From a virus: a stretch of DNA of 34,947 bases. The number at the start of each line of letters is the position of its first letter. Within the stretch, counting starts at the first letter, position 1. The stretch lies in the UHGV virus genome UHGV-0108399; one strand, written 5' to 3'. The translations under genes were made by a program, and so were the position numbers. Below the pieces are notes generated by a model. That model was not told the origin of the DNA and did not search any database. It saw only the letters and a list, made by a program, of their open reading frames with translations. Positions 7,757 to 34,947 of the stretch are shown here, in pieces.

Positions 7757-8140
7757 TCATCTCGCCGTCAGTTGTTTTGATTTCCGGTAGCCTGCCGCGT
7801 AAATGGCTACGTTTGGAAGACATACACCAGTTTCTGGTTGCTTATGTCCAAACTCATTCGCGTACACAATGGCCGCTCGCTCCAGATTGCGTCTGTATTC
7901 TTTCTGTTGCCAGATCACGTCCTGTGCCATGAACTTAATTGGCTTAGCGTCTTCTATGCGCTCAGGCGTTTCGTGAGTACCTTTAGCCTGAATCTGCGCT
8001 CTGCTTAGAGTAGGGCGGTGTAATACTTCTGAACTTATTGCTTCTTCGCGGGCCAGTACGCCGTTAGCTAATGCCTTTGCCTTTAAACGCTCACGACGAC
8101 GAGAACGTGAATTGCCTTTGAACTGAGTTCTGCGTGTCAT
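7757..8140 (-). CDS. N: Antitermination protein N (P22 gp24 / phage 21 N type)
   Basis: Arginine-rich motif near N-terminus (GNSRSRRRERLKAKALANG), C-terminus AIYAAGYRKSKQLTAR; AGGAGG RBS; first gene downstream of pL and nutL. Confidence 0.75.
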   Translation of the reverse strand: MTRRTQFKGNSRSRRRERLKAKALANGVLAREEAISSEVLHRPTLSRAQIQAKGTHETPERIEDAKPIKFMAQDVIWQQKEYRRNLERAAIVYANEFGHKQPETGVCLPNVAIYAAGYRKSKQLTAR

Positions 8141-8542: not shown

Positions 8543-9202
8543 TTAACTAAATGTCTCTTCAGGCCACTGGCTGGCGATAACTTTCCCTACTACGGAACAG
8601 CTATCATTGCATGGGATCATTGGATATTGCGGGTTTAGTGGTTGTAGGAACACCTGACCGCTATCCCTGATCAGTTTCTTGAAGGTAAACTCCTCACCAC
8701 CAAGTCTGGCTATGCAGAAATCACCTGGCTCAACAGCCTGCTCAGGGTCAACGAGAATTAACATCCCGTCAGGAAAACTTGGCTTGGATCCTGTTGGTGC
8801 GGTCATGGAATTACCTTCAACTTCAAGCCAAAACGCACAATCACTGGCTTTTTTGGTTGTGCTGACCCATCTCTCCGCATCACCTTTGGTAAAGGTTCTA
8901 AGCTCAGGCGAGAACATCCCGGCCTGAACATGAGAAAAAACAGGGTACTCATATTGTTTTTTTACGGGGGCAGATGAGTATTCGCCAACAGGTGAAAATG
9001 TACCGTCGTGGTTGAATGAGACGTTATCAATACCAAGGTATTTAAACACCACACCAATCTCGTCAAGAGATGGATGACGAGATCCGCGCAACCAGTGACC
9101 AATTCCACCCTGCGTCATACCAAGCTCTTCAGCTAACTTCTCTTGAGTTATGCCGAGCTCTTTCATTCTGGATCTAGCCAGTTCATACCATTTCATTTTC
9201 AT
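8543..9202 (-). CDS. cI: CI-type prophage repressor (HTH N-domain + LexA/S24-like C-domain); start at 9202 or 9196
   Basis: C-terminal domain near-identical to the lambda cI C-domain ([39 protein letters not shown] ... [11 protein letters not shown]); N-terminal HTH ([27 protein letters not shown]) is not lambda-like. The track ORF start at 9277 lies in the operator region; AAGGA RBS supports 9202/9196. Confidence 0.85.
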
Positions 9203-9211
9203 ATCCTTATT

Positions 9212-9287
9212 ATTACGCTCTGTACTAAAACCATCCATGCACAAGATGTATTTTTTGTTTGCATTCCAAGAGTACATATCGTATTAT
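9212..9287 (+). promoter_or_regulatory. OR operator region with pR promoter (-35 TTGCAT 9259..9264, -10 TATTAT 9282..9287)
   Basis: Candidate operator palindromes at 9212..9226 (ATTAC-N5-GTACT), 9238..9252 (weak) and 9271..9285 (AGTAC-N5-GTATT); the last sits in the pR spacer. Divergent pRM not precisely mapped. Confidence 0.5.
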
Positions 9288-9999: not shown

Positions 10000-10146
10000 A
10001 TGACAAAACAACTCAGTCCTTACCAGGACAAAATTCACAAACACATACTACGTGATCGCTTCCTGTCCAGCTTCAAGCAGCCTGGTCGATTCCGGTCTGA
10101 GTTGGAAAAAGTGAAGCTGATGCAGAAGGAGAAAGGTCATGAGTAA
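10000..10146 (+). CDS. Small hypothetical protein (48 aa) between cII and O
   Basis: Hand-translated ORF ([48 protein letters not shown]) with AGGAG RBS 6 nt upstream; 3' end overlaps the start of the O-like gene. Confidence 0.3.
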
Positions 10147-10999
10147 TATTGCAACCGTAACACATTTAAGGCCTTCACAACGGCCTGTGGAGCGTCGTGT
10201 GGCAGAAGTTGAAGATGGTTATACCCGTCTTGCAAATGCCCTGTATGAAGAGCTTATCGGCGCAGATTTAACGAAAAATCAGAGCAAGGTTGCCCACGCC
10301 ATATGCCGTAAAACATACGGCTACGGTAAAAAGATGGATCGCATCTCTGATAGTCAGTTAGCTCAAATTACCAGGCTGCCAAGACAGAAGGTAAACAAGG
10401 CCAAGAATGAGCTTATCGCGATGAAGGTAATCCTTCGCGAAGGCCAGCAAATCGGGCCTAACAAGAACATCGAGGAATGGCAAATCGAAGGGTGTCACTA
10501 CTCTGGTGATAATGTCACTGCATTGGTGACAAAAAGTGTCACCAAAACGGTGACAGCGCTGTCACCAAAACAGGGACACACAAAAGAAACTATTACAAAA
10601 GAAAAAAGAAATAATAAAAACACTATGTCCGAAAGTGTTCGGACGGAGTGTGAAAAATCATCTGACCGTCACGAAGAAACCGACAAGGCATTCGAGGAAA
10701 TATTCTGGTGTGCAGGCATGCGGAAAGCCGGGAAGAAAAACGCAGCTTCAGCATTCAGAACACAGTTCAGGGAATGGCGTAAAACTACCAGGGGTACGGC
10801 AAGCGAGTTTGCCACGATGCTGGCAGAAGACATCGCATGCAGGAATGGTAAGCAGTTCGGATTCGACAGGTTGTTACCATCGAGCTACCTGAACGGTCAG
10901 CGCTGGAACGACGAAAAGCCAGAAACCATTCAACCACAATCCAAACCATCATCCGCAATCACCGTATCGAAAACTGGCTACGTGTTTTTCGACAGGTGA
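10139..10999 (+). CDS. O: Replication initiator, lambda O-like N-terminal domain
   Basis: N-terminal ~110 aa ([56 protein letters not shown] ... GPNKNIEEW) resembles the lambda O N-domain; C-terminal half is unrelated to lambda O. Confidence 0.8.
10504..10620 (+). repeat. Putative replication origin: GGTGAC / GTCACC iteron palindromes followed by an A-rich segment, inside the O-like gene
   Basis: GGTGATAATGTCAC, GGTGACAAAAAGTGTCACC and GGTGACAGCGCTGTCACC in tandem, then AAAAGAAACTATTACAAAAGAAAAAAGAAATAATAAAAA; architecture matches ori-lambda. Confidence 0.55.
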
Positions 11000-11106: not shown

Positions 11107-12987
11107 ATGACGCCAAGTGAACTTAGCGACCTGCTTTGGGCGCAGGTTGACAGGGTGGCTCCGCACCTGTTGCCAAACGGCAAGAAAGAGGGGCATGAGT
11201 GGGTTGCCGGTAACGTCAACGGTGACAAGGGAAACAGCCTTAAGGTCAACCTTAGCGGCAAGAAAAAATGGGCTGATTTCGCTGAGGGAGACGGCGGTGA
11301 CATGCTTGATTTGTGGATGGCATGTCGTGGAATTAACCTGCATCAGGCTATGCAGGAAGCGAAAGCCTTTCTCGGAATCAAGGATGACGATCACCATTTC
11401 GATGCCAAACGTGAGAAGAAATTCTCCAGACCTGACCGCAAGAAAATCGCCCGCTACGTTACCAGAACAGAATCCCATCTTGAGTACCTGCAATCGCGTG
11501 GCATATCGCCAGAAGTCGTAAAGCGCTACGAGGTTGTCAGCGGCAAGGTGTGGAATGGAGAACGAGAACTTGATGCACTGGTGCTTCCGTACAAACGCGA
11601 TGGTGAGTTGTTGCAGGTCAAGCGAATCAGCACTGAGCGCCCGGACGGGAAGAAAGTCATTATGGCAGAAGGTGATTGCGAACCTTGTCTGTTCGGATGG
11701 CAGGCTCTGGACGCTGGCGTGAGGGCGGTTGTACTTTGCGAAGGCGAAATTGATTGTATGAGCTATGCGCAATACGGCATCTCGGCGTTATCCGTGCCGT
11801 TTGGTGGCGGGAAAGGCGCTAAGCAACAGTGGATTGAGTTTGAGTATCACAACCTCGACAGGTTTGAGGAAATATTCATCTCGATGGATGTTGATGATGT
11901 TGGTCGTGAAGCCGCAAGGGAAATCGCAAGCCGACTCGGTGAACATCGTTGCCGTCTTGTTACTCTGCCGTACAAAGACATCAACGAATGCCTGATGAAC
12001 GGTGTTACCGAGGATGAAATCTGGCAGTACATCGGCACGGCATCCTACTTCGATCCTGAAGAACTCTACAGCGCGCGAGAGTTTTACCAGGACACTATCA
12101 ACGCTTTCTACGGCAAGCAGCAGTATCTGTTTAATCCACCGTGGGAATCTCTGGCAGATAAATTCCAGTTCCGTGAGGCAGAGTTGACGCTGGTCAATGG
12201 TGTGAACGGTCACGGAAAAACGGAGGTTGTCGGGCATATGGCACTTGAGGCAATGCGTCAGGGTGTGAAGACGTGCATCGCGTCACTTGAGCTGAAGCCT
12301 GGTATTCTCCTTAAGCGACTTACCCGTCAGGCAACGTGCTGCAAGATGCCGCCAGTGCTGGAAATTGACTCTGCATTTAAATTTTATGACGAAAGACTCT
12401 GGGTGTTTGGCCTGACCGGAACGGCGAAAGCCGACAGGCTGATCGAAATATTCGACTACGCTCGCCGCCGATACGGCATCCAGTTATTCATCATCGACAG
12501 CCTGATGAAATGCGGCATAGGTGACGATGATTATAACGGGCAGAAAGCATTTGTTGACTCGATTTGCGACTTCAAAAACAAAACAAACTCCCACGTCATT
12601 CTCGTTACTCACTCGCGAAAAGGAGACAGCGAAGAAAAACCAACCGGGAAAATGGACGTAAAAGGCTCTGGAGCGATAACAGACCTGACAGACAACCTTT
12701 TCATCATCTGGCGTAACAAGGCTCGCGAGAGAGCGTTACAGAGAGTTCAGAGTGGTGAAAAGATGTCAGAGAAGGACGAACAGCTACTGGCATCTCCGGC
12801 ATCTGTTTTGATGCTTGAAAAACAACGTAACGGCGAAGGTTGGGAAGGTGGCGTCCCGTTGTTCCTTGACGAGCAATCGCACCAGTTCCTGCAACTTGAA
12901 TCAGGATCGCCATATAGCTACATCGCCAATATGCCGAAATCGGAATATGACGAGGCGTGGCGACAGGAAAACGTGACGGAGTATTAA
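11107..12987 (+). CDS. Bifunctional primase-helicase (DnaG-like TOPRIM + SF4 DnaB/T7 gp4-like helicase)
   Basis: 626 aa; TOPRIM motifs (VVLCEGEIDCMSYAQ; ISMDVDDVGREAA); helicase Walker A NGVNGHGKTE and Walker B LFIIDSLMK; N-terminal region looks like a cysteine-poor relic of a primase zinc-binding domain. Confidence 0.8.
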   Translation: MTPSELSDLLWAQVDRVAPHLLPNGKKEGHEWVAGNVNGDKGNSLKVNLSGKKKWADFAEGDGGDMLDLWMACRGINLHQAMQEAKAFLGIKDDDHHFDAKREKKFSRPDRKKIARYVTRTESHLEYLQSRGISPEVVKRYEVVSGKVWNGERELDALVLPYKRDGELLQVKRISTERPDGKKVIMAEGDCEPCLFGWQALDAGVRAVVLCEGEIDCMSYAQYGISALSVPFGGGKGAKQQWIEFEYHNLDRFEEIFISMDVDDVGREAAREIASRLGEHRCRLVTLPYKDINECLMNGVTEDEIWQYIGTASYFDPEELYSAREFYQDTINAFYGKQQYLFNPPWESLADKFQFREAELTLVNGVNGHGKTEVVGHMALEAMRQGVKTCIASLELKPGILLKRLTRQATCCKMPPVLEIDSAFKFYDERLWVFGLTGTAKADRLIEIFDYARRRYGIQLFIIDSLMKCGIGDDDYNGQKAFVDSICDFKNKTNSHVILVTHSRKGDSEEKPTGKMDVKGSGAITDLTDNLFIIWRNKARERALQRVQSGEKMSEKDEQLLASPASVLMLEKQRNGEGWEGGVPLFLDEQSHQFLQLESGSPYSYIANMPKSEYDEAWRQENVTEY

Positions 12988-13016: not shown

Positions 13017-13048
13017 AGGCCTGCTGGTAATCGCAGGCCTTTTTATTT
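13017..13048 (+). terminator. Intrinsic terminator after the primase-helicase gene (AGGCCTGC-loop-GCAGGCCT followed by TTTTTATTT)
   Basis: Perfect 8-bp GC-rich stem followed by a T-run on the plus strand. Confidence 0.6.
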
Positions 13049-13287: not shown

Positions 13288-13665
13288 ATGGACGAATCAA
13301 GAAAGCAGTTTGAAGAAAGTTGGTTGCGACGTGGTGGCGAATCTTCAGACCTTATCCGTTACCCTGAAAATCACCATGAAATTGGCAGCGGTAATATTGG
13401 TGGTCAATACGTGATGGACGATGTTCAAGGCCACTGGCAAACGTGGCAGGCATCACGAGCAGCTATTGAACTGGATATCGACTGGCCCGAATCGAATGAC
13501 GACTTTTGGAAAGATGGTGAAGAAGGTGCTTATGCGATGGGTTATGAGGATGGGAGAGACAAAACGGTAATTGCAGTAATGAAAGCTATCAGAGCCGCTG
13601 GAATTAAAGAGAAGAATTTCGATGAAGCAAATATACATACTTCGCAACGAAGCAATCAGAAATAA
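13288..13665 (+). CDS. Hypothetical protein (125 aa)
   Basis: Track ORF upstream of ninB, overlapping its start by 44 nt. Confidence 0.45.
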   Translation: MDESRKQFEESWLRRGGESSDLIRYPENHHEIGSGNIGGQYVMDDVQGHWQTWQASRAAIELDIDWPESNDDFWKDGEEGAYAMGYEDGRDKTVIAVMKAIRAAGIKEKNFDEANIHTSQRSNQK

Positions 13666-14068: not shown

Positions 14069-14247
14069 GACGACAGCGACGAAGTTTCACCGACATAATC
14101 TGCGAAAACTGCAAATACCTTCCAACGAAACGCTCCAGAAACAAACGCAAGCCAATCCCAAAAGAATCTGACGTAAAAACCTTCAATTACACGGCTCACC
14201 TGTGGGATATACGGTGGCTTAGAGAACGTGCGAGGAAAACAAGGTGA
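14065..14247 (+). CDS. ninE: NinE-like small basic protein (60 aa)
   Basis: [60 protein letters not shown]; GGAGGG RBS; ATGA overlap with the ninB stop. Nin-family name is from memory and may be the wrong member. Confidence 0.5.
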
Positions 14248-14414
14248 TTGACCCAAATCGAAGTTACGAACAAGAAAGCGTCGAGCGGGCTTTAACGTGC
14301 GCTAACTGCGGTCAGAAGCTGCATGTGCTGGAAGTTCACGTGTGCTCCGATTGCTGCGCAGAACTGATGAGCGATCCGAATAGCTCAATGTACGAGGAAG
14401 AAGACGATGAATGA
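14244..14414 (+). CDS. Small Cys-rich protein (56 aa; CxxC ... CxxCC), NinF-like
   Basis: Hand-translated: (V)[55 protein letters not shown]; GTGA overlap with the upstream stop; 3' end overlaps the start of the Rha gene. End coordinate approximate. Confidence 0.4.
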
Positions 14415-15132
14415 GTTAATAAATGGCAATGCCATCAAAATGACAAGCATTGAAATCGCTGAGTTGGTAGAAAGTCGCCATAGCAATGTAAAAGTATCCA
14501 TAGATAGATTGGTGAAACGTGGCGTTATCAAGCCTCCTGCATTGCAGCACACTAACATAATCAATGATTTAGGTGTTATTACCGGGAAGCGTGATTTCTA
14601 CGTCTTCGAAGGCGAACAAGGAAAGCGAGACAGTATTGTCGTTGTAGCCCAGTTGTCGCCGGAATTCACCGCTCGTCTTGTTGACCGTTGGCGAGAGCTT
14701 GAAGAAACTGCGGTTAATATCCCCAAAACGCTACCAGAAGCGTTGCGCCTTGCTGCTGATCTTGCTGAGCAGAAAATGCAACTGGAAAACCAGCTCGCAA
14801 TTGCCGCACCTAAAGTTGAGTTTGCCGATCGAGTTGGCGAGGCCAGCGGAATTTTGATTGGAAACTTTGCAAAGGTTGTTGGAATTGGTCCAAACAAACT
14901 GTTTGCGTGGATGCGCGATCACAAAATCCTTATTGCTTCAGGTTCCCGGCGCAATGTGCCAATGCAGGAATATATGGATCGCGGCTATTTCACAGTGAAA
15001 GAAACAGCGGTCAACACAAATCACGGAATACAGATATCGTTCACCACAAAAATCACCGGACGTGGTCAACAGTGGCTGACCAGAAAGCTGCTCGATAACG
15101 GAATGCTGAAAGTAACAGGGGAGGCTGCTTAA
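14407..15132 (+). CDS. Phage regulatory protein Rha / antirepressor (Rha N-domain + KilA-C/ANT C-domain)
   Basis: N-terminal IEIAELVESRHSNVKVSIDRL... resembles Phage_pRha; C-terminal FAKVVGIGPNKLFAWMRDHKIL... resembles the KilA-C antirepressor domain. Confidence 0.7.
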   Translation: MNELINGNAIKMTSIEIAELVESRHSNVKVSIDRLVKRGVIKPPALQHTNIINDLGVITGKRDFYVFEGEQGKRDSIVVVAQLSPEFTARLVDRWRELEETAVNIPKTLPEALRLAADLAEQKMQLENQLAIAAPKVEFADRVGEASGILIGNFAKVVGIGPNKLFAWMRDHKILIASGSRRNVPMQEYMDRGYFTVKETAVNTNHGIQISFTTKITGRGQQWLTRKLLDNGMLKVTGEAA

Positions 15133-15422
15133 TGGCTAACCTACGCAAAGAAGCACGCGGCAGAGAATGCCAGGTACGTATTTACGGCGTATGCAATGGC
15201 AATCCTGAAACTACAGTTCTGGCACATTACCGGATGTCTGGAATTTGCGGAACGGGAATGAAACCTGACGACCTGATCGGTGCATGGGCTTGTAGCGCGT
15301 GTCACGATGAAATCGACCGACGCACCCATAATCTCGACAACAAAGACGCCAGACTTTACCACCTCGAAGGCGTGATCAGGACGCAGGCGATACTGCTGAA
15401 GGAGGGGAAGATTAAGTCATGA
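15132..15422 (+). CDS. YbcO-like DUF1364 Cys-rich protein (putative nuclease)
   Basis: 96 aa; RECQVRIYGVCNGNPETTVLAHYR ... CSACHDEIDRR resembles DLP12 prophage YbcO; sits immediately upstream of rusA, as in DLP12. Confidence 0.7.
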   Translation: MANLRKEARGRECQVRIYGVCNGNPETTVLAHYRMSGICGTGMKPDDLIGAWACSACHDEIDRRTHNLDNKDARLYHLEGVIRTQAILLKEGKIKS

Positions 15423-15966: not shown

Positions 15967-16481
15967 GCATAAGAGAGCTAAATCTCACCAAAGAACAGCA
16001 CGAGTGGCTGAATGGCTGGCTTGAACTGTGGGGCGCATGGGTTTATTCAGGTCGTCTGGAAAAGCGCATGAGCAGCGTAATAGCGAAGTTCATGGAGAGC
16101 GTAGAGCCGGGAAGAGTTATGACAAGGCCAATGTGTAATGATGATGATGGAATGTTGATTTCTCAGGTCGTCGATTCCGTCATGTACATTGACAAGAAAG
16201 CCTTTGGCATCCTCCTCAGCTACTACGCTCATGGTTCATCTAAGCGAGCAATTGCATCCTACTATCACGCGACTGCAAAGCCACGCAAGATGTGTGGACG
16301 TGGTGGCGATGGATGGAGAAAACCTTCACTGGCAACCTGTAGAAACGAAATTGACGACATCCTGAAAGCGTCGTTATTTGTTTTGTACCAACCAATGCAA
16401 AATGCTTTCAAAATGCGTAAACGTGTTGAGAAAGTTAAGCATGTTGCTGTTAAGAGCCTTGACATGCAATTATCCATTTAG
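15963..16481 (+). CDS. Q: Late-gene antiterminator Q (non-lambda type)
   Basis: 172 aa; between ninH and the late promoter and lysis cassette; resembles the Phage_antitermQ family by memory. Confidence 0.65.
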   Translation: MSIRELNLTKEQHEWLNGWLELWGAWVYSGRLEKRMSSVIAKFMESVEPGRVMTRPMCNDDDGMLISQVVDSVMYIDKKAFGILLSYYAHGSSKRAIASYYHATAKPRKMCGRGGDGWRKPSLATCRNEIDDILKASLFVLYQPMQNAFKMRKRVEKVKHVAVKSLDMQLSI

Positions 16482-16488
16482 CCATAAT
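16459..16488 (+). promoter_or_regulatory. Late promoter pR' (-35 TTGACA 16459..16464, 18-nt spacer, -10 CATAAT 16483..16488)
   Basis: Consensus -35 hexamer overlapping the 3' end of Q; predicted start about 16495; the qut site is presumed to overlap. Confidence 0.5.
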
Positions 16489-18296: not shown

Positions 18297-18470
18297 TAGC
18301 GATAATTTTACTCATCATCCTTCACATCTGGCTCTGTAGGCAGGATGGTGAACACTTCTGGAGTGAATCCAGATTAAACATCTCATTGCTGATGCTTGAT
18401 ATTGAGCATATGGCGCGCGGTAAGGGGCTGCGTTGAGATAAGAGCCAGTTCATTACAAATACCAGGATTT

Positions 18471-18496
18471 AGCCTCGCATTTGCGGGGCTTTTTAT
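18471..18496 (+). terminator. Terminator-like hairpin after the lysis cassette (AGCCUCGC-AUUU-GCGGGGCU followed by TTTTTATT)
   Basis: 8-bp stem including one G-U pair, followed by a T-run, about 175 nt after the Rz stop. Confidence 0.4.
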
Positions 18497-18518
18497 TCCC
18501 AACTGCATAGGTAATTTT

Positions 18519-18998
18519 ATGACCCAGCATATTGGCGTAAAACTGATTAACGCCTTTCCGATGACGAGACAGGCATATAACGATTTTCGTGGCTGGCAGC
18601 TTCCTGCCGGAGAAAACGGCGAGGACGAAGGCTATCTGGTTGAATATCTGGATGGCGGAAAACCTAACACCGATCGCTTTGATGGCTACGTTAGCTGGAG
18701 TCCAAAAGAAGTATTCGAAAAGGCTTATCGTCCGGTATCAGGACTAAGTTTCGGCCTTGCCATGGAAGCGTTAAAACAGGGCAAAAGTTTGCAGCGGGCA
18801 GGATGGAATGGGAAAGACCAGTTTGTTTATCTCGTGAAAGGGGAAAAATTAGCGTCTGCGTTGGGTTATGGCTTTGGCGAATATGTTGGCGAGTCAACTT
18901 TCAATGACACGCTTGTATTGAAAAACTCACAGAACCGCCTTGCTACATGGGTTCCATCCATTGGCGACCTGATGGCTGAAGACTGGCAAATCATTTAA
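18519..18998 (+). CDS. DUF2829-like phage protein with extra N-terminal domain (159 aa)
   Basis: C-terminal half (AMEALKQGKSLQRAGWNGKDQFVYLVKGEK ... LATWVPSIGDLMAEDWQII) resembles the DUF2829 signature. The track ORF start 18396 spans the upstream hairpin, so the internal ATG is preferred. Confidence 0.5.
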   Translation: MTQHIGVKLINAFPMTRQAYNDFRGWQLPAGENGEDEGYLVEYLDGGKPNTDRFDGYVSWSPKEVFEKAYRPVSGLSFGLAMEALKQGKSLQRAGWNGKDQFVYLVKGEKLASALGYGFGEYVGESTFNDTLVLKNSQNRLATWVPSIGDLMAEDWQII

Positions 18999-31705: not shown

Positions 31706-34099
31706 ATGGCTAATTACCGTGATTTGTTAGAGCAGGCTGGCGCACGTTACGGTGTGCCAGAAGGGTTGATGACTGCACTGGGTGCCAAGGAGTCTTCTTA
31801 CGACCCTGCCGCAGTAAGCTCCGCCGGGGCTGTAGGATTGACTCAGGTCATGCCTGGGACATGGCGTGATATGGGTTATACCGATGAGCAAATGCAAAAC
31901 CCCGAATATCAGGCTGACGCTGGCGCGCGCTATCTGGCAAAGATGTACCAGCAGTTTGGTAACTGGCGTGACGCTCTTCAGGCTTATCACGACGGTCCCG
32001 GCAACGTTATGAAGGCAAAGCGTGGTGAATATACGCCAGGACCTGAAGGCCGCGGTTACGTTGATGATCGCTTTGCTCAATGGGCGGGTGACCCGGTGAC
32101 AGACTCAACAGTCGAACAGCGCGCCACCTCTGCAAAGGTACATCCTCAGCAAGACCCTAACAACCCGTTTGCACAACTGGAAGTACAGTCATCCGAACAA
32201 GTATCGGCATCAGGTGTGCAGTCAGACCCAAATAATCCATTTGCTCAGATTGAGCAGCAGGCAGCCAGTCAGCAGCCACCTCAACCCGTAAGTTCTGTCG
32301 CACCGAAACCTGTTCAGCAACAAGGCGGAATAATGTCTGACCTTGGTAATGGACTTGCTGAAACCGGGCGCGGCTTACTACAGGCAGGAATCAACGTGGC
32401 GAACATACCTGCTGAACTCACTGATGCTGTAACAAGCGCGGCGGCTTGGGCTGGCGGTAAACTCGGCATTGGCGATGGTACATATCAACCAGCACCACGA
32501 TTAACAACGCAGGGATTAGAGCAGGACTTTGGCCTTCAGCAAGGAGCGCTGACTCCACAAACGACAGAGGGAAGGGTATTTGCTGAAGCATTGCCTTACC
32601 TCACTCCTGCCGGCGTTGAGAGAGCGGCAACACAGGCACCAACACTTGCTGGTCGAATTGCTCAGGGTGCAACTCGCCTTCTCGCTGAAAACGCAGTTGG
32701 ATCACTTGCTGCAAACAGTGTGAAAGATGATGCGGAAGCACTAGCCACCGACTTAGGCGTTGGCGTTCTGGCTGGCGGAGCTATTAACGCTGCCGGACGT
32801 GGATTAGGTGCTGCTTATCGTGGAGTTCGTGGTGCGATAGCGCCAGAAGCGCAACAGGCTATCAGGTTTGCAGAGCGTGAAGGAGTGCCTCTGCACACCA
32901 CAGACCTGTTACAACCTACTTCCCGCGTCGGAAAAATGGCGCAGACTACAGCAGAAAATATCCCTCTGGCTGGCACAAGCGGAATGAGAGCAACGCAACA
33001 GGAAGCGAGAAGCCAGTTGGTGCAGAGATTTGCTGATAAATTCGGTGAGTATGATCCAGCTGTTGTTATTGAAAGCCTTAAAGCGAAAACATCAGGAATT
33101 CGTCGTGCTGCAGGTAATCGACTTGAACAGGTTCAGAATGCAATGGCGGGAGTCAACATTCAGCCTGTGCGAGCAATTCAGCAGATTGATACTGAGATAT
33201 CTAACCTGCAGAAGCTTGGTAAGGTCGCTGATAACGAGACGATTTCAAAACTTCAATCCTATCGTGATGAGCTTATTCGCAATGCTGGTCATGATGGTCC
33301 GGTAAATCTGGATTTGAAGCAATTAAGCGATCTGCGCAGCCAGTTCAGAATGGACGTGAAGGGTGAGCGACCAGTGTTACCAAATCGTTCCGATGCCGCC
33401 ATACAGCGCGTTTACAAGGCGATGACCGACGATATCAATGGTGCCATTGGTCATAATCTTGGCAACGATACTCTCCGTAAATATCAGCAGGCCAATGCCG
33501 TCTACGCTGACGAAGCGGCGAAACTAAAGAATACCAGGCTGAAGAATGTTCTCATGAAAGGCGACCTGACACCGGAAATTGTCAACAACATGCTATTCAG
33601 CAAGAACAAATCGGAAATTAAGACGCTGTATAACTCAGTTGGTCGTGTTGGCAGGGCGCAAATGCGCAATGGCATCATTGGAAAGGCGATGGAGAAATCT
33701 GGCGGATCCCCTGACCAGTTCCTTCGGCAGCTTAACATCCTGCAAAACCAGACTGGCATCACATTTAAGGGGCAGGATGCTGCTTATCTGAAAGGATTGA
33801 AAAATTACCTTCAGTCCACTCAGCAGGCAGCAAAAGCGGCAGTAACAACACCCACAGGGCAGCAAACCATCCCGTTCATTATCGGGTATGGGACGGCAAT
33901 GAACCCGGCGACAACTGGCGCAGCAGTAAGCTACGGACTTCTTACTCGCGCCTATGAGAGCGAACCATTCAGAAATGCAATGCTCAGAATGGCAAACACC
34001 CCACGCGGATCAACAGCCTTTGAGAAAGCAATGCAGCAGGCACAAAAGGCAATTAACGCTCTGACGCAGGGGGCTAAGTCTGATTCGTTGTCAGAATAG
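31706..34099 (+). CDS. Ejection protein (gp16 position) with N-terminal soluble lytic transglycosylase domain
   Basis: 797 aa; N-terminal SLT motif (GAKESSYDPAAVSSAGAVGLTQVMPGTWRDMGY); long A/G/Q-rich extended region; internal DPNNPFAQ duplication. Confidence 0.75.
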   Translation: MANYRDLLEQAGARYGVPEGLMTALGAKESSYDPAAVSSAGAVGLTQVMPGTWRDMGYTDEQMQNPEYQADAGARYLAKMYQQFGNWRDALQAYHDGPGNVMKAKRGEYTPGPEGRGYVDDRFAQWAGDPVTDSTVEQRATSAKVHPQQDPNNPFAQLEVQSSEQVSASGVQSDPNNPFAQIEQQAASQQPPQPVSSVAPKPVQQQGGIMSDLGNGLAETGRGLLQAGINVANIPAELTDAVTSAAAWAGGKLGIGDGTYQPAPRLTTQGLEQDFGLQQGALTPQTTEGRVFAEALPYLTPAGVERAATQAPTLAGRIAQGATRLLAENAVGSLAANSVKDDAEALATDLGVGVLAGGAINAAGRGLGAAYRGVRGAIAPEAQQAIRFAEREGVPLHTTDLLQPTSRVGKMAQTTAENIPLAGTSGMRATQQEARSQLVQRFADKFGEYDPAVVIESLKAKTSGIRRAAGNRLEQVQNAMAGVNIQPVRAIQQIDTEISNLQKLGKVADNETISKLQSYRDELIRNAGHDGPVNLDLKQLSDLRSQFRMDVKGERPVLPNRSDAAIQRVYKAMTDDINGAIGHNLGNDTLRKYQQANAVYADEAAKLKNTRLKNVLMKGDLTPEIVNNMLFSKNKSEIKTLYNSVGRVGRAQMRNGIIGKAMEKSGGSPDQFLRQLNILQNQTGITFKGQDAAYLKGLKNYLQSTQQAAKAAVTTPTGQQTIPFIIGYGTAMNPATTGAAVSYGLLTRAYESEPFRNAMLRMANTPRGSTAFEKAMQQAQKAINALTQGAKSDSLSE

Positions 34100-34262
34100 C
34101 TTTGCAAACACCAGAAATGTGCAAAAACCAAATATATAGAACGCAATATTCAACTGATCTTTTTGCATAGACTCATCTCATAGTTAACAAATCATAACTT
34201 ACATTAATGCAATGCCGGGCAAGTTGCATCTTGTTCCGCATTGCTACGTCTGGAGAAAATTA

Positions 34263-34947
34263 AATGACAGACATTACAGCCAATGTTGTAGTGAGTATGC
34301 CTTCGCAACTCTTCACTATGGCGCGTTCTTTTAAAGCAGTAGCCAACGGCAAAATTTATATCGGAAAAATTGACACTGACCCGGTAAGTCCAGAAAACCA
34401 GATTCAGGTTTATGTAGAGAACGAAGACGGCTCTCATGTTCCTGTTTCGCAGCCAATCATCATTAACGCTGCTGGATATCCGGTATATAACGGGCAGATT
34501 GCCAAATTCGTAACTGTTCAAGGCCATTCTATGGCTGTATATGATGCATATGGCACTCAGCAGTTCTATTTCCCTAATGTGCTGAAGTATGACCCGGATC
34601 AGCTACGGCAGCAGTTAGAAGACCCGGATGGTGCTAAAAAATATCCCGAATTGCAGATTGCACGATGGCGTGATGACAAAGATGTTCGCGGTTGGGGGGC
34701 TATCAGTGATGGAATAACTGACGCTACTGAGGCATTCTCTAACGCAGGCTATAGAATGTTTGTTCCTGATGGCGATTTTGCAGTAAATACTCTCGAAGTT
34801 GATGTATCTTCTGCTCGAGGTATTGGGAGGATTGTTGCAGATAATGGCTCTCTTATTTCCGTTTCTCGTCTACTTGAAACTGACAAACTTGCGCAGAGAA
34901 AAATGATGGAACCTTTTTTTGGTTTTCAGGGAGAAACAAACACAGAA
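34263..34947 (+). CDS. Tailspike protein, N-terminal part (P22 gp9-type head-binding domain + start of divergent receptor-binding domain); truncated by window end
   Basis: Hand-translated: [41 protein letters not shown] ... [15 protein letters not shown] ... NVLKYDPDQ closely matches the P22 tailspike head-binding domain; downstream sequence is not P22-like; no stop before the window end; GGAGA RBS. Confidence 0.85.

What the first reader, a model, noticed from the sequence alone, without database searches (positions are those of the whole stretch)
14407..15132. Rha/KilA-C antirepressor-type gene embedded in the nin region
A two-domain Rha plus KilA-C protein lies between NinE/F-like genes and ybcO-rusA. 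Such proteins are implicated in lysis-lysogeny decisions and antirepression. It is an additional regulatory layer over the chimeric cI/cro switch, and the window lacks the P22 immI (ant) region near the tailspike.
Basis: established knowledge. Interest (0 to 1): 0.35.

Follow-up and report, generated by a model that had tools for sequence, protein, structure and literature searches.

The report
Known lambdoid phage gene roi
This gene is roi, a lambdoid-phage DNA-binding regulator first described in 1996; its "antirepressor" label comes only from a shared domain, so the finding is real but ordinary.

Summary
The Rha domain is below Pfam's cutoff in this allele (24.6 against 29.9), but sister alleles pass it and a confident structure model supports it.

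The protein matches phage HK022 Roi at 239 of 241 residues, so this is roi. Clerget & Boccard (1996) described Roi as a DNA-binding protein that blocks lytic growth in IHF-deficient hosts. That summary is from my memory of the abstract; I could not open the paper.

No evidence shows Roi acts as an antirepressor. The gene is translationally coupled into the N-dependent nin operon and has no good promoter match of its own, so it cannot start induction of its own prophage.

Comparing roi alleles from 182 fetched sequence stretches, I found a 135-bp hypervariable cassette (14467-14601) that encodes the recognition helix and wing. Inside it are a dyad that keeps its symmetry through compensating base changes (14536-14548) and a conserved IHF core (14559-14571). 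I propose these as the Roi operator and IHF site. The KilAC half is nearly invariant.

Verdict: already known, low interest.

The parts
14407..15132 (+). roi coding sequence (241 aa). Its ATG overlaps the ninF stop (ATGAATGA) and its TAA overlaps the ybcO ATG (TAATG).
   Evidence: 97.7% DNA identity to HK022 roi and 239/241 aa identical, V78I and T101A.
14440..14706 (+). N-terminal Rha-type winged helix-turn-helix domain (aa 12-100). Model topology: strand 11-13, helices 14-21 and 25-37, hairpin 45-52/58-68, helices 69-81 and 85-101.
14467..14601 (+). Hypervariable cassette (CDS nt 61-195, aa 21-65: recognition helix plus beta-hairpin wing). At least 6 types occur in DNA and a 7th is seen in protein.
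   Evidence: 54-81% nt identity between types here, against 100% for nt 1-60 and 90-99% for nt 196-330. Type lists.
14536..14548 (.). Candidate Roi operator: 13-bp dyad cCTGCATTGCAGc (perfect core 14537-14547). The only exact copy in the window.
   Evidence: Symmetry is kept through paired changes in other cassette types: CCTCAAATTGAGG, CCTGCATTGCAGG, CCCCCAATGGTGG. Top-scoring of 735 variable position-by-spacer windows, 28/30 arm pairs against a mean of 7.7, sd 3.9. Unique in the window and not recurrent in the flanks. Binding by Roi is inferred, not shown.
14559..14571 (+). IHF core consensus AATCAATGATTTA (WATCAANNNNTTR).
   Evidence: One of only 3 matches in 34,947 bp. Identical in HK022. 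Present at the same CDS position (nt 153-165) in all 65 distinct alleles of the first set, despite the diverged surroundings. One cassette type (T6) has one mismatch.
14423..14435 (.). Invariant 6-1-6 dyad ATGGCAATGCCAT within the 100%-conserved first 60 nt of roi. Its role is unknown.
   Evidence: 6/6 arm pairs in types T1-T5.
14731..14841 (+). Long linker helix (aa 109-145). It occupies the position of the MerR-family dimerisation helix.
   Evidence: AF2 model. Two mosaic sequence variants of aa 100-138 exist in the family. Dimerisation is inferred.
14785..15093 (+). KilAC/ANT domain (aa 127-229), nearly invariant across roi alleles.
   Evidence: Pfam 113.2 bits. Amino-acid diversity at or below 0.02 over aa 129-241. 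67.7% identical to the C-terminal part of the P1-like SJ46 antirepressor and 35-42% to Gram-positive phage proteins.
13017..13040 (+). tR2-like intrinsic terminator between the primase/helicase gene and the nin genes. It makes roi expression dependent on N antitermination (inferred).
   Evidence: 8-bp stem, 6 GC pairs, T-run. N gene at 7757-8140.
14244..14414 (+). ninF, the upstream neighbour.
   Evidence: Pfam NinF 51.7 bits. Upstream neighbour in most of 122 distinct contexts.
15132..15422 (+). ybcO (DUF1364), the downstream neighbour.
   Evidence: Pfam YbcO 149.5 bits. Downstream neighbour in about 101 of 122 contexts; a 201-aa ORF that I take to be NinG (not domain-tested) in 17.

Best explanation
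The ORF is roi, a delayed-early gene of lambdoid phages that lies in the nin region between the replication genes and Q. Its product has two parts. The N-terminal part is a Rha-type winged helix-turn-helix followed by a long helix, a MerR-like topology that suggests a dimer. This part binds a specific site inside the roi coding sequence next to an IHF site. I propose that the site is the dyad at 14536-14548, 11 bp upstream of the IHF core at 14559-14571. The C-terminal part is a KilAC domain that hardly varies between alleles, which suggests it works on a conserved partner such as a host protein. The Roi-IHF-DNA complex sits in the middle of the pR transcript just upstream of Q. It most likely autoregulates roi and damps read-through towards Q. 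Without IHF the protein is mis-regulated and blocks lytic growth. Status of each step: gene identity is shown here. DNA binding, IHF cooperation and the IHF-mutant phenotype were reported for the 99%-identical HK022 protein; they are not tested here and are recalled from the abstract. The identity of the operator, dimerisation, the roadblock effect on Q and the target of KilAC are inferred. It is not an established antirepressor.
For: Identity: HK022 record annotates 'roi, DNA binding protein'; DNA identical to HK022 across the dyad and IHF core. [quoted passage not shown] The Rha founders in phi80 and P22 have the same IHF-mutant phenotype. Domains and fold. IHF core. Dyad with paired compensating changes and co-variation with recognition-helix residue 30 (V/I, Q, R). 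Variable N-terminal cassette against invariant KilAC. Operon position: overlapping start and stop codons, upstream terminator and no strong promoter (the best match, 9 of 12, lies at 14070-14099). Conserved synteny in 122 contexts.
Confidence: 0.8

Rival explanations
1. One reading: a true antirepressor. Roi binds and inactivates the cI-type repressor (8543-9277) of this phage or of heteroimmune prophages, replacing the missing immI Ant.
For: The KilAC half is 67.7% identical to the C-terminal part of the antirepressor of P1-like phage SJ46, which sits next to kilA-repL as P1 ant1 does. PHROG 63 and RefSeq label it 'anti-repressor'. immI is absent.
Against: The label is by homology only. From my own knowledge, the P1 C1 repressor is unrelated to the S24/HTH_3 repressor encoded here. 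No mnt/arc-like control genes or own promoter are present; the gene is coupled into the repressed pR operon downstream of a terminator, so it would appear only after derepression. The reported Roi phenotype is inhibition of lytic growth, not promotion. HK022 and HK97 carry roi, and no antirepressor phenotype turned up in the held library.
Confidence: 0.12
2. An AriS-like dual-function regulator in which the main role lies in KilAC. That domain dampens the host SOS/RecA response to coordinate or restrain induction of co-resident prophages, while the N-terminal domain tunes the phage's own genes. This overlaps with the best explanation rather than excluding it.
For: Listeria AriS (AntA/B + KilAC): KilAC alone blocks SOS when overexpressed, the N-terminal domain acts only on its own phage, and pRha + KilAC variants are listed as AriS-like. 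Roi shows the same pattern of variable N-terminus and invariant KilAC. Roi's KilAC is 35-42% identical to those of Gram-positive phages.
Against: The AriS effect required overexpression, and deleting the KilAC domain did not change SOS gene transcription at native expression levels. Identity to listerial KilAC is only about 35%. No E. coli data exist.
Confidence: 0.2
3. A host-killing or cell-division inhibitor, like P1 KilA or phi11 Gp07.
For: The phi11 Gp07 KilA-C domain alone causes growth arrest and filamentation in E. coli. The domain is named after P1 KilA.
Against: That was overexpression of a distant homologue. It does not explain the intragenic site, the IHF link or the variable DNA-binding cassette.
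Confidence: 0.08
4. A cis-acting nucleoprotein element. Roi plus its intragenic site and IHF would act like lambda O at ori, or like a Par/RacA-type anchoring complex, rather than as a transcription regulator.
Confidence: 0.04

Closest known systems
Roi of coliphages HK022 and HK97 (Clerget & Boccard 1996, J Bacteriol 178:4077)
   Same: 239/241 aa identical. Same length and same position (ninF-roi-ybcO-rusA-ninH-Q). DNA is identical across the IHF core and the dyad.
   Different: Two conservative substitutions (V78I, T101A). The host phage here is a P22/Sf6-like podovirus, not a siphovirus.
Rha of phi80 and P22 orf201 (Pfam PF09669 founders)
   Same: Same N-terminal DNA-binding domain family, and the same phenotype: blocks phage growth in IHF-deficient hosts.
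   Different: As cited, rha is a late-operon gene, whereas roi is in the nin region and carries a KilAC domain. This allele scores below the Pfam cutoff.
P1 Ant1/Ant2 antirepressor and KilA
   Same: Shares the C-terminal KilAC domain; 67.7% identity to the P1-like SJ46 homologue.
   Different: Different N-terminal domain: AntA/B in Ant1. From my own knowledge, P1 ant is controlled by a dedicated immI region (c4 and icd), and no such control genes flank roi. The target repressor families are unrelated.
Listeria phage phi10403S AriS and AriS-like proteins
   Same: Two-domain layout: a variable DNA-binding N-terminus (AntA/B, Bro-N or pRha) plus a conserved KilAC domain.
   Different: About 35% identity in KilAC. 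SOS inhibition has not been tested for Roi. No intragenic operator or IHF link is reported for AriS.
Staphylococcus phage phi11 Gp07 (Bro-N + KilA-C)
   Same: KilA-C domain, 36-40% identical in related staphylococcal phages.
   Different: Bro-N rather than Rha N-terminus. The phenotype is filamentation on overexpression.
MerR-family winged-helix regulators (structural resemblance only)

Membership tests
Roi (HK022/HK97 roi orthologues) | Near-identical sequence to HK022 Roi over its full length | tested here: met
   239/241 aa and 97.7% nt identity.
Roi (HK022/HK97 roi orthologues) | Located between the replication genes and Q in the nin region | tested here: met
Roi (HK022/HK97 roi orthologues) | Intragenic IHF site next to the Roi-binding site | tested here: inconclusive
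   A perfect IHF core lies at 14559-14571, identical to HK022 and conserved across alleles. A candidate dyad lies at 14536-14548.
Roi (HK022/HK97 roi orthologues) | Blocks lytic growth on IHF-deficient hosts | not testable with these tools
   Needs plating on ihfA/ihfB mutants.
Pfam ANT/KilAC (PF03374) | Score above the gathering cutoff | tested here: met
   113.2 bits against 25.3, profile positions 1-106 of 108.
Pfam Phage_pRha (PF09669) | Score above the gathering cutoff | tested here: not met
   24.6 bits against 29.9 for this allele. However, the whole profile is aligned, alleles L052 and L079 pass (36.3 and 33.5 bits), and Rha-family structures match the model. Homology is therefore supported even though this allele fails the formal cutoff.
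Antirepressors (functional class: P1 Ant, P22 Ant) | Binds and inactivates the prophage repressor | not testable with these tools
   No such report for Roi in the held library.
Antirepressors (functional class: P1 Ant, P22 Ant) | Own promoter under a dedicated secondary immunity control (Mnt/Arc or c4), so it can be expressed in or against a lysogen | tested here: not met
   The neighbours are NinF and YbcO. The gene overlaps both. No promoter match better than 9/12, and that one is 300 bp upstream.
AriS-like dual-function regulators | N-terminal AntA/B, Bro-N or pRha domain plus a C-terminal KilAC domain | tested here: met
AriS-like dual-function regulators | KilAC domain inhibits the host SOS response | not testable with these tools
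   Needs an SOS reporter assay in E. coli.
Known anti-phage defence proteins (PADLOC) | Match to any PADLOC model | tested here: not met
   No match at E 0.01 or better.

The most novel reading that the evidence does not exclude
roi carries a self-contained, exchangeable specificity cassette. About 135 bp encode the recognition helix and wing, and the same stretch contains the matching dyad operator and an IHF site. At least six such cassettes circulate among lambdoid phages between invariant flanks. That would give the nin region an immunity-like set of Roi specificities that has not, to my knowledge, been described. It would imply that Roi distinguishes its own genome from related ones.
Probability: 0.4. 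Interest if true: 0.4.

Novelty: already known. Interest (0 to 1): 0.12.

Why it matters
For the window, the result corrects an annotation. Databases label this gene 'antirepressor', but it is roi, whose reported activity is site-specific DNA binding with IHF and inhibition of lytic growth in IHF mutants. It should not be counted as an extra induction switch or as a stand-in for immI.

More generally, roi matches occur in 986 of 5,426 complete E. coli genomes and in many Stx-converting phages, yet its role is still unclear 30 years on. The cassette, dyad and IHF-core pattern gives a concrete, cheap experiment to define its operator and specificity. The invariant KilAC half links it to the AriS work on control of the SOS response.

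Tried and rejected
1. I could not open Clerget & Boccard 1996 by PubMed id, PMC id or DOI. Its content is cited from memory, from its title, and from paraphrases in two other papers.
2. Sequence searches of the PDB with the protein and with a profile found nothing usable.
3. The first AlphaFold run, on a shallow alignment of 82-99% identical sequences, failed (pLDDT 37.9), and I discarded it.
4. A second homologous-protein search with a diverse profile returned only E. coli Roi again, so it added no diversity. The diverse set from the search of protein representatives was accepted directly and gave the good model.
5. Foldseek against the PDB gave no match at E 0.001 or better.
6. The shared GCAWTGC core of the two dyads is not enriched enough to count as a motif: 16 matches in the window against 10.2 expected.
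7. The type-specific dyads do not recur in the flanks of 166 loci or elsewhere in the window, so I found no second operator.
8. There were no PADLOC hits and no useful NCBIfam hit.
9. I found no further experimental literature on Roi in the held library.
10. The CDS positions printed are 3 nt too low because of an offset error in my script. Searches give the correct positions, and all coordinates in this report are the corrected ones.

Full report
**Observation.** The ORF is exactly as described: 14407..15132, + strand, ATG start, 241 aa. Its ATG overlaps the ninF stop codon and its TAA overlaps the ATG of the next gene. Pfam gives a strong ANT/KilAC match (aa 127-229, 113.2 bits against a cutoff of 25.3). 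It also gives a Phage_pRha match that spans the whole profile (aa 12-100, positions 1-91 of 91) but scores 24.6 bits, below the cutoff of 29.9. PHROGs places the protein in phrog_63, 'anti-repressor Ant' (7e-93).

**Identity.** The DNA is 97.7% identical over its full length to roi of phage HK022, which is annotated 'roi, DNA binding protein'. It is 97.1% identical to roi of HK97. The protein differs from HK022 Roi at 2 of 241 positions, V78I and T101A. Similar sequences occur in 219 phage records, many of them Stx-converting phages, and in 986 of 5,426 complete E. coli genomes. This is the known gene roi.

I could not open the primary paper (Clerget & Boccard 1996, J Bacteriol 178:4077). [quoted passage not shown] From my memory of the abstract:
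- Roi has a helix-turn-helix.
- It binds a site within its own gene, close to an IHF site.
- IHF stabilises that binding.
- Three single-residue roi mutants grow on IHF-deficient hosts.
- The C-terminal half resembles P1 Ant1 and KilA.

**The phage.** The window is a mosaic P22/Sf6-like temperate podovirus; the best matches cover at most 51% of the first 25 kb. It encodes an S24/HTH_3 cI-type repressor, N, SieB, cII, O and a primase/helicase. The DNA-transfer protein gene ends at 34099, and a P22-type tailspike ORF starts at 34264 and runs off the window end, as in Sf6.

**Is the N-terminal domain really Rha?** I fetched roi alleles from IMG/VR: 80 loci by protein and 120 more stretches by a conserved 32-mer, with many contigs appearing in both sets. 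Alleles that differ from the window's only in a short cassette pass the Pfam Rha cutoff with the same boundaries (L052 36.3 bits, L079 33.5 bits). Others fall below it, as the window's does (L038 27.8, L029 21.0).

A first AlphaFold run on near-identical sequences failed (pLDDT 37.9). A second run used 47 diverse full-length relatives (34-56% identity) taken from the representative search. That search found 6,601 clusters at E 1e-3 or better and 2,422 at 1e-10 or better. The second run gave a confident model (pLDDT 91.5).

**A variable cassette with embedded sites.** Codon-wise comparison of 65 distinct alleles shows an uneven pattern:
- CDS nt 1-60 are identical in all five main types.
- nt 61-195 (window 14467-14601) are only 54-81% identical between types.
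- nt 196-330 are 90-99% identical.
- The KilAC half is nearly invariant, with amino-acid diversity at or below 0.02 over aa 129-241.

On the model, the variable stretch is the recognition helix plus the wing. I found at least six cassette types in DNA and a seventh in protein.

Two islands stand out inside the cassette. The first is an IHF core consensus (WATCAANNNNTTR) at 14559-14571. It is one of only three in the window and is identical in HK022. It sits at the same CDS position in all 65 alleles of the first set, with the same ATC, AAT and TTA codons despite the diverged surroundings. Type T6 has one mismatch.

The second is a 13-bp dyad at 14536-14548 whose symmetry survives sequence change:

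| Cassette type | Dyad sequence | Paired arm positions |
|---|---|---|
| T1 and T5 | CCTCAAATTGAGG | 6/6 |
| T4 | CCTGCATTGCAGG | 6/6 |
| T3 (window and HK022) | CCTGCATTGCAGC | 5/6 |
| T2 | CCCCCAATGGTGG | 5/6 |

Two arm positions change on both sides together. The encoded residues also differ between types (PQIE, PALQ, PPMV), so the symmetry is not a by-product of protein conservation. Among 735 position-by-spacer windows with at least three distinct sequences, this dyad is the top scorer, with 28 of 30 arm pairs against a mean of 7.7 (sd 3.9). The dyad type tracks residue 30 of the predicted recognition helix: V or I with CTGCA, Q with CCCCA, R with CTCAA. The dyad occurs once in the window and does not recur in the flanks of 166 loci.

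I propose this dyad as the Roi operator. It would fit the reported 'site within its own gene closely linked to an IHF site', but binding is inferred and the published footprint could not be checked. Three caveats apply:
- The half-sites are only 7 bp apart.
- Type T6 lacks the dyad.
- The IHF core alone is not statistically significant window-wide.

**Expression.** A tR2-like terminator follows the primase/helicase gene (13017-13040). The best promoter-like match near roi scores only 9 of 12 and lies 300 bp upstream (14070-14099). A strong pR'-like promoter lies after Q (16459-16488). The genes from ninE to Q overlap at their start and stop codons. roi is therefore an N-dependent delayed-early gene of the repressed pR operon. 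It should be silent in a lysogen, so it cannot trigger induction of its own prophage.

**What KilAC might do.** The C-terminal half has relatives in 1,450 phage records. It is 67.7% identical to the C-terminal part of the antirepressor of P1-like phage SJ46, which sits beside kilA and repL. It is 35-42% identical to proteins of Gram-positive phages. Experimental data on KilAC proteins point in different directions:
- From my own knowledge, P1 Ant binds the C1 repressor.
- In Listeria AriS the KilAC domain alone blocks the SOS response when overexpressed, while the variable N-terminal domain acts on the phage's own genes. pRha + KilAC proteins are listed as AriS-like.
- In phi11 Gp07 the KilA-C domain causes growth arrest and filamentation in E. 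coli.

The Roi pattern of a variable DNA-binding cassette and an invariant KilAC fits the AriS logic of a phage-specific head and a tail aimed at a conserved partner. Nothing here shows what that partner is.

**Verdict.** The finding is a correct description of a known gene. The 'antirepressor' reading is a database label, not a demonstrated function. It conflicts with the gene's place in the operon and with the reported phenotype, although it is not excluded.

The best-supported mechanism is a site-specific, IHF-assisted DNA-binding regulator acting inside the nin transcription unit upstream of Q, with a conserved KilAC effector of unknown target. roi is dispensable: it is interrupted by IS629 in some Stx2a phages and by a stop codon, a deletion or another disruption in several fetched prophages.

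The cassette, dyad and IHF-core pattern is a modest new observation that is easy to test. Novelty: already known. Interest: low.

Noticed in passing
window 18519-18998 (+); the ORF listing gives 18396-18998 from a TTG: Just downstream of Rz lies an ORF (about 159 aa from the first ATG) whose C-terminal part matches Pfam Tad2-like, the Thoeris anti-defence 2-like domain (77.5 bits, E 1.2e-21). It falls in phrog_872, unknown function, and has no PADLOC hit. From memory, P22 has rha/orf201 at this position. It may be an anti-Thoeris gene.
   Followed up: partly
window 14407-14466 and 14423-14435: The first 60 nt of roi are identical in all five main allele types, although the rest of the gene diverges. 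They contain a perfect 6-1-6 dyad, ATGGCAATGCCAT. This could be a recombination boundary or a second binding site. It shares the GCAWTGC core with the window-type dyad, but that motif is not significantly enriched.
   Followed up: partly
window 14704-14820 (Roi aa 100-138): There is a second mosaic segment in the linker helix. Two variants circulate (TAVNIPKTLPEALRLAADLAEQKMQLENQLAIAAPKVE and ATAKIPQTFSEALRLAADLEDQKAELEKQLALAAPKVD), independently of the N-terminal cassette type.
   Followed up: no
loci L075, L127, L175; Stx2a phages PST1-3 and PST1-6: Some roi copies are inactivated: a stop codon at residue 49 (L075), a deletion joining the roi 5' end to ybcO (L127), a disrupted copy (L175), and IS629 insertions reported in Stx2a phages. 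The gene is therefore dispensable in prophages.
   Followed up: partly
window 34100-34947: A P22-type tailspike ORF starts at 34264 ([11 protein letters not shown]...), only 164 bp after the DNA-transfer protein gene, and runs off the window end. This is the Sf6-like arrangement without sieA-mnt-arc-ant. The minus-strand ORF 34204-34527 has no family match and is probably spurious.
   Followed up: yes
window 11107-12987: Replication uses a 626-aa Toprim plus DnaB-like primase/helicase fusion next to an O-type initiator (10139-10999), in place of a lambda P-type loader.
   Followed up: no
window 31706-34099: The 797-aa DNA-transfer (ejection) protein carries an N-terminal SLT lytic transglycosylase domain (86.9 bits).
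   Followed up: no
window 13288-13665: A 125-aa ORF at the start of the nin region has no Pfam match and falls in phrog_343, unknown function.
   Followed up: no
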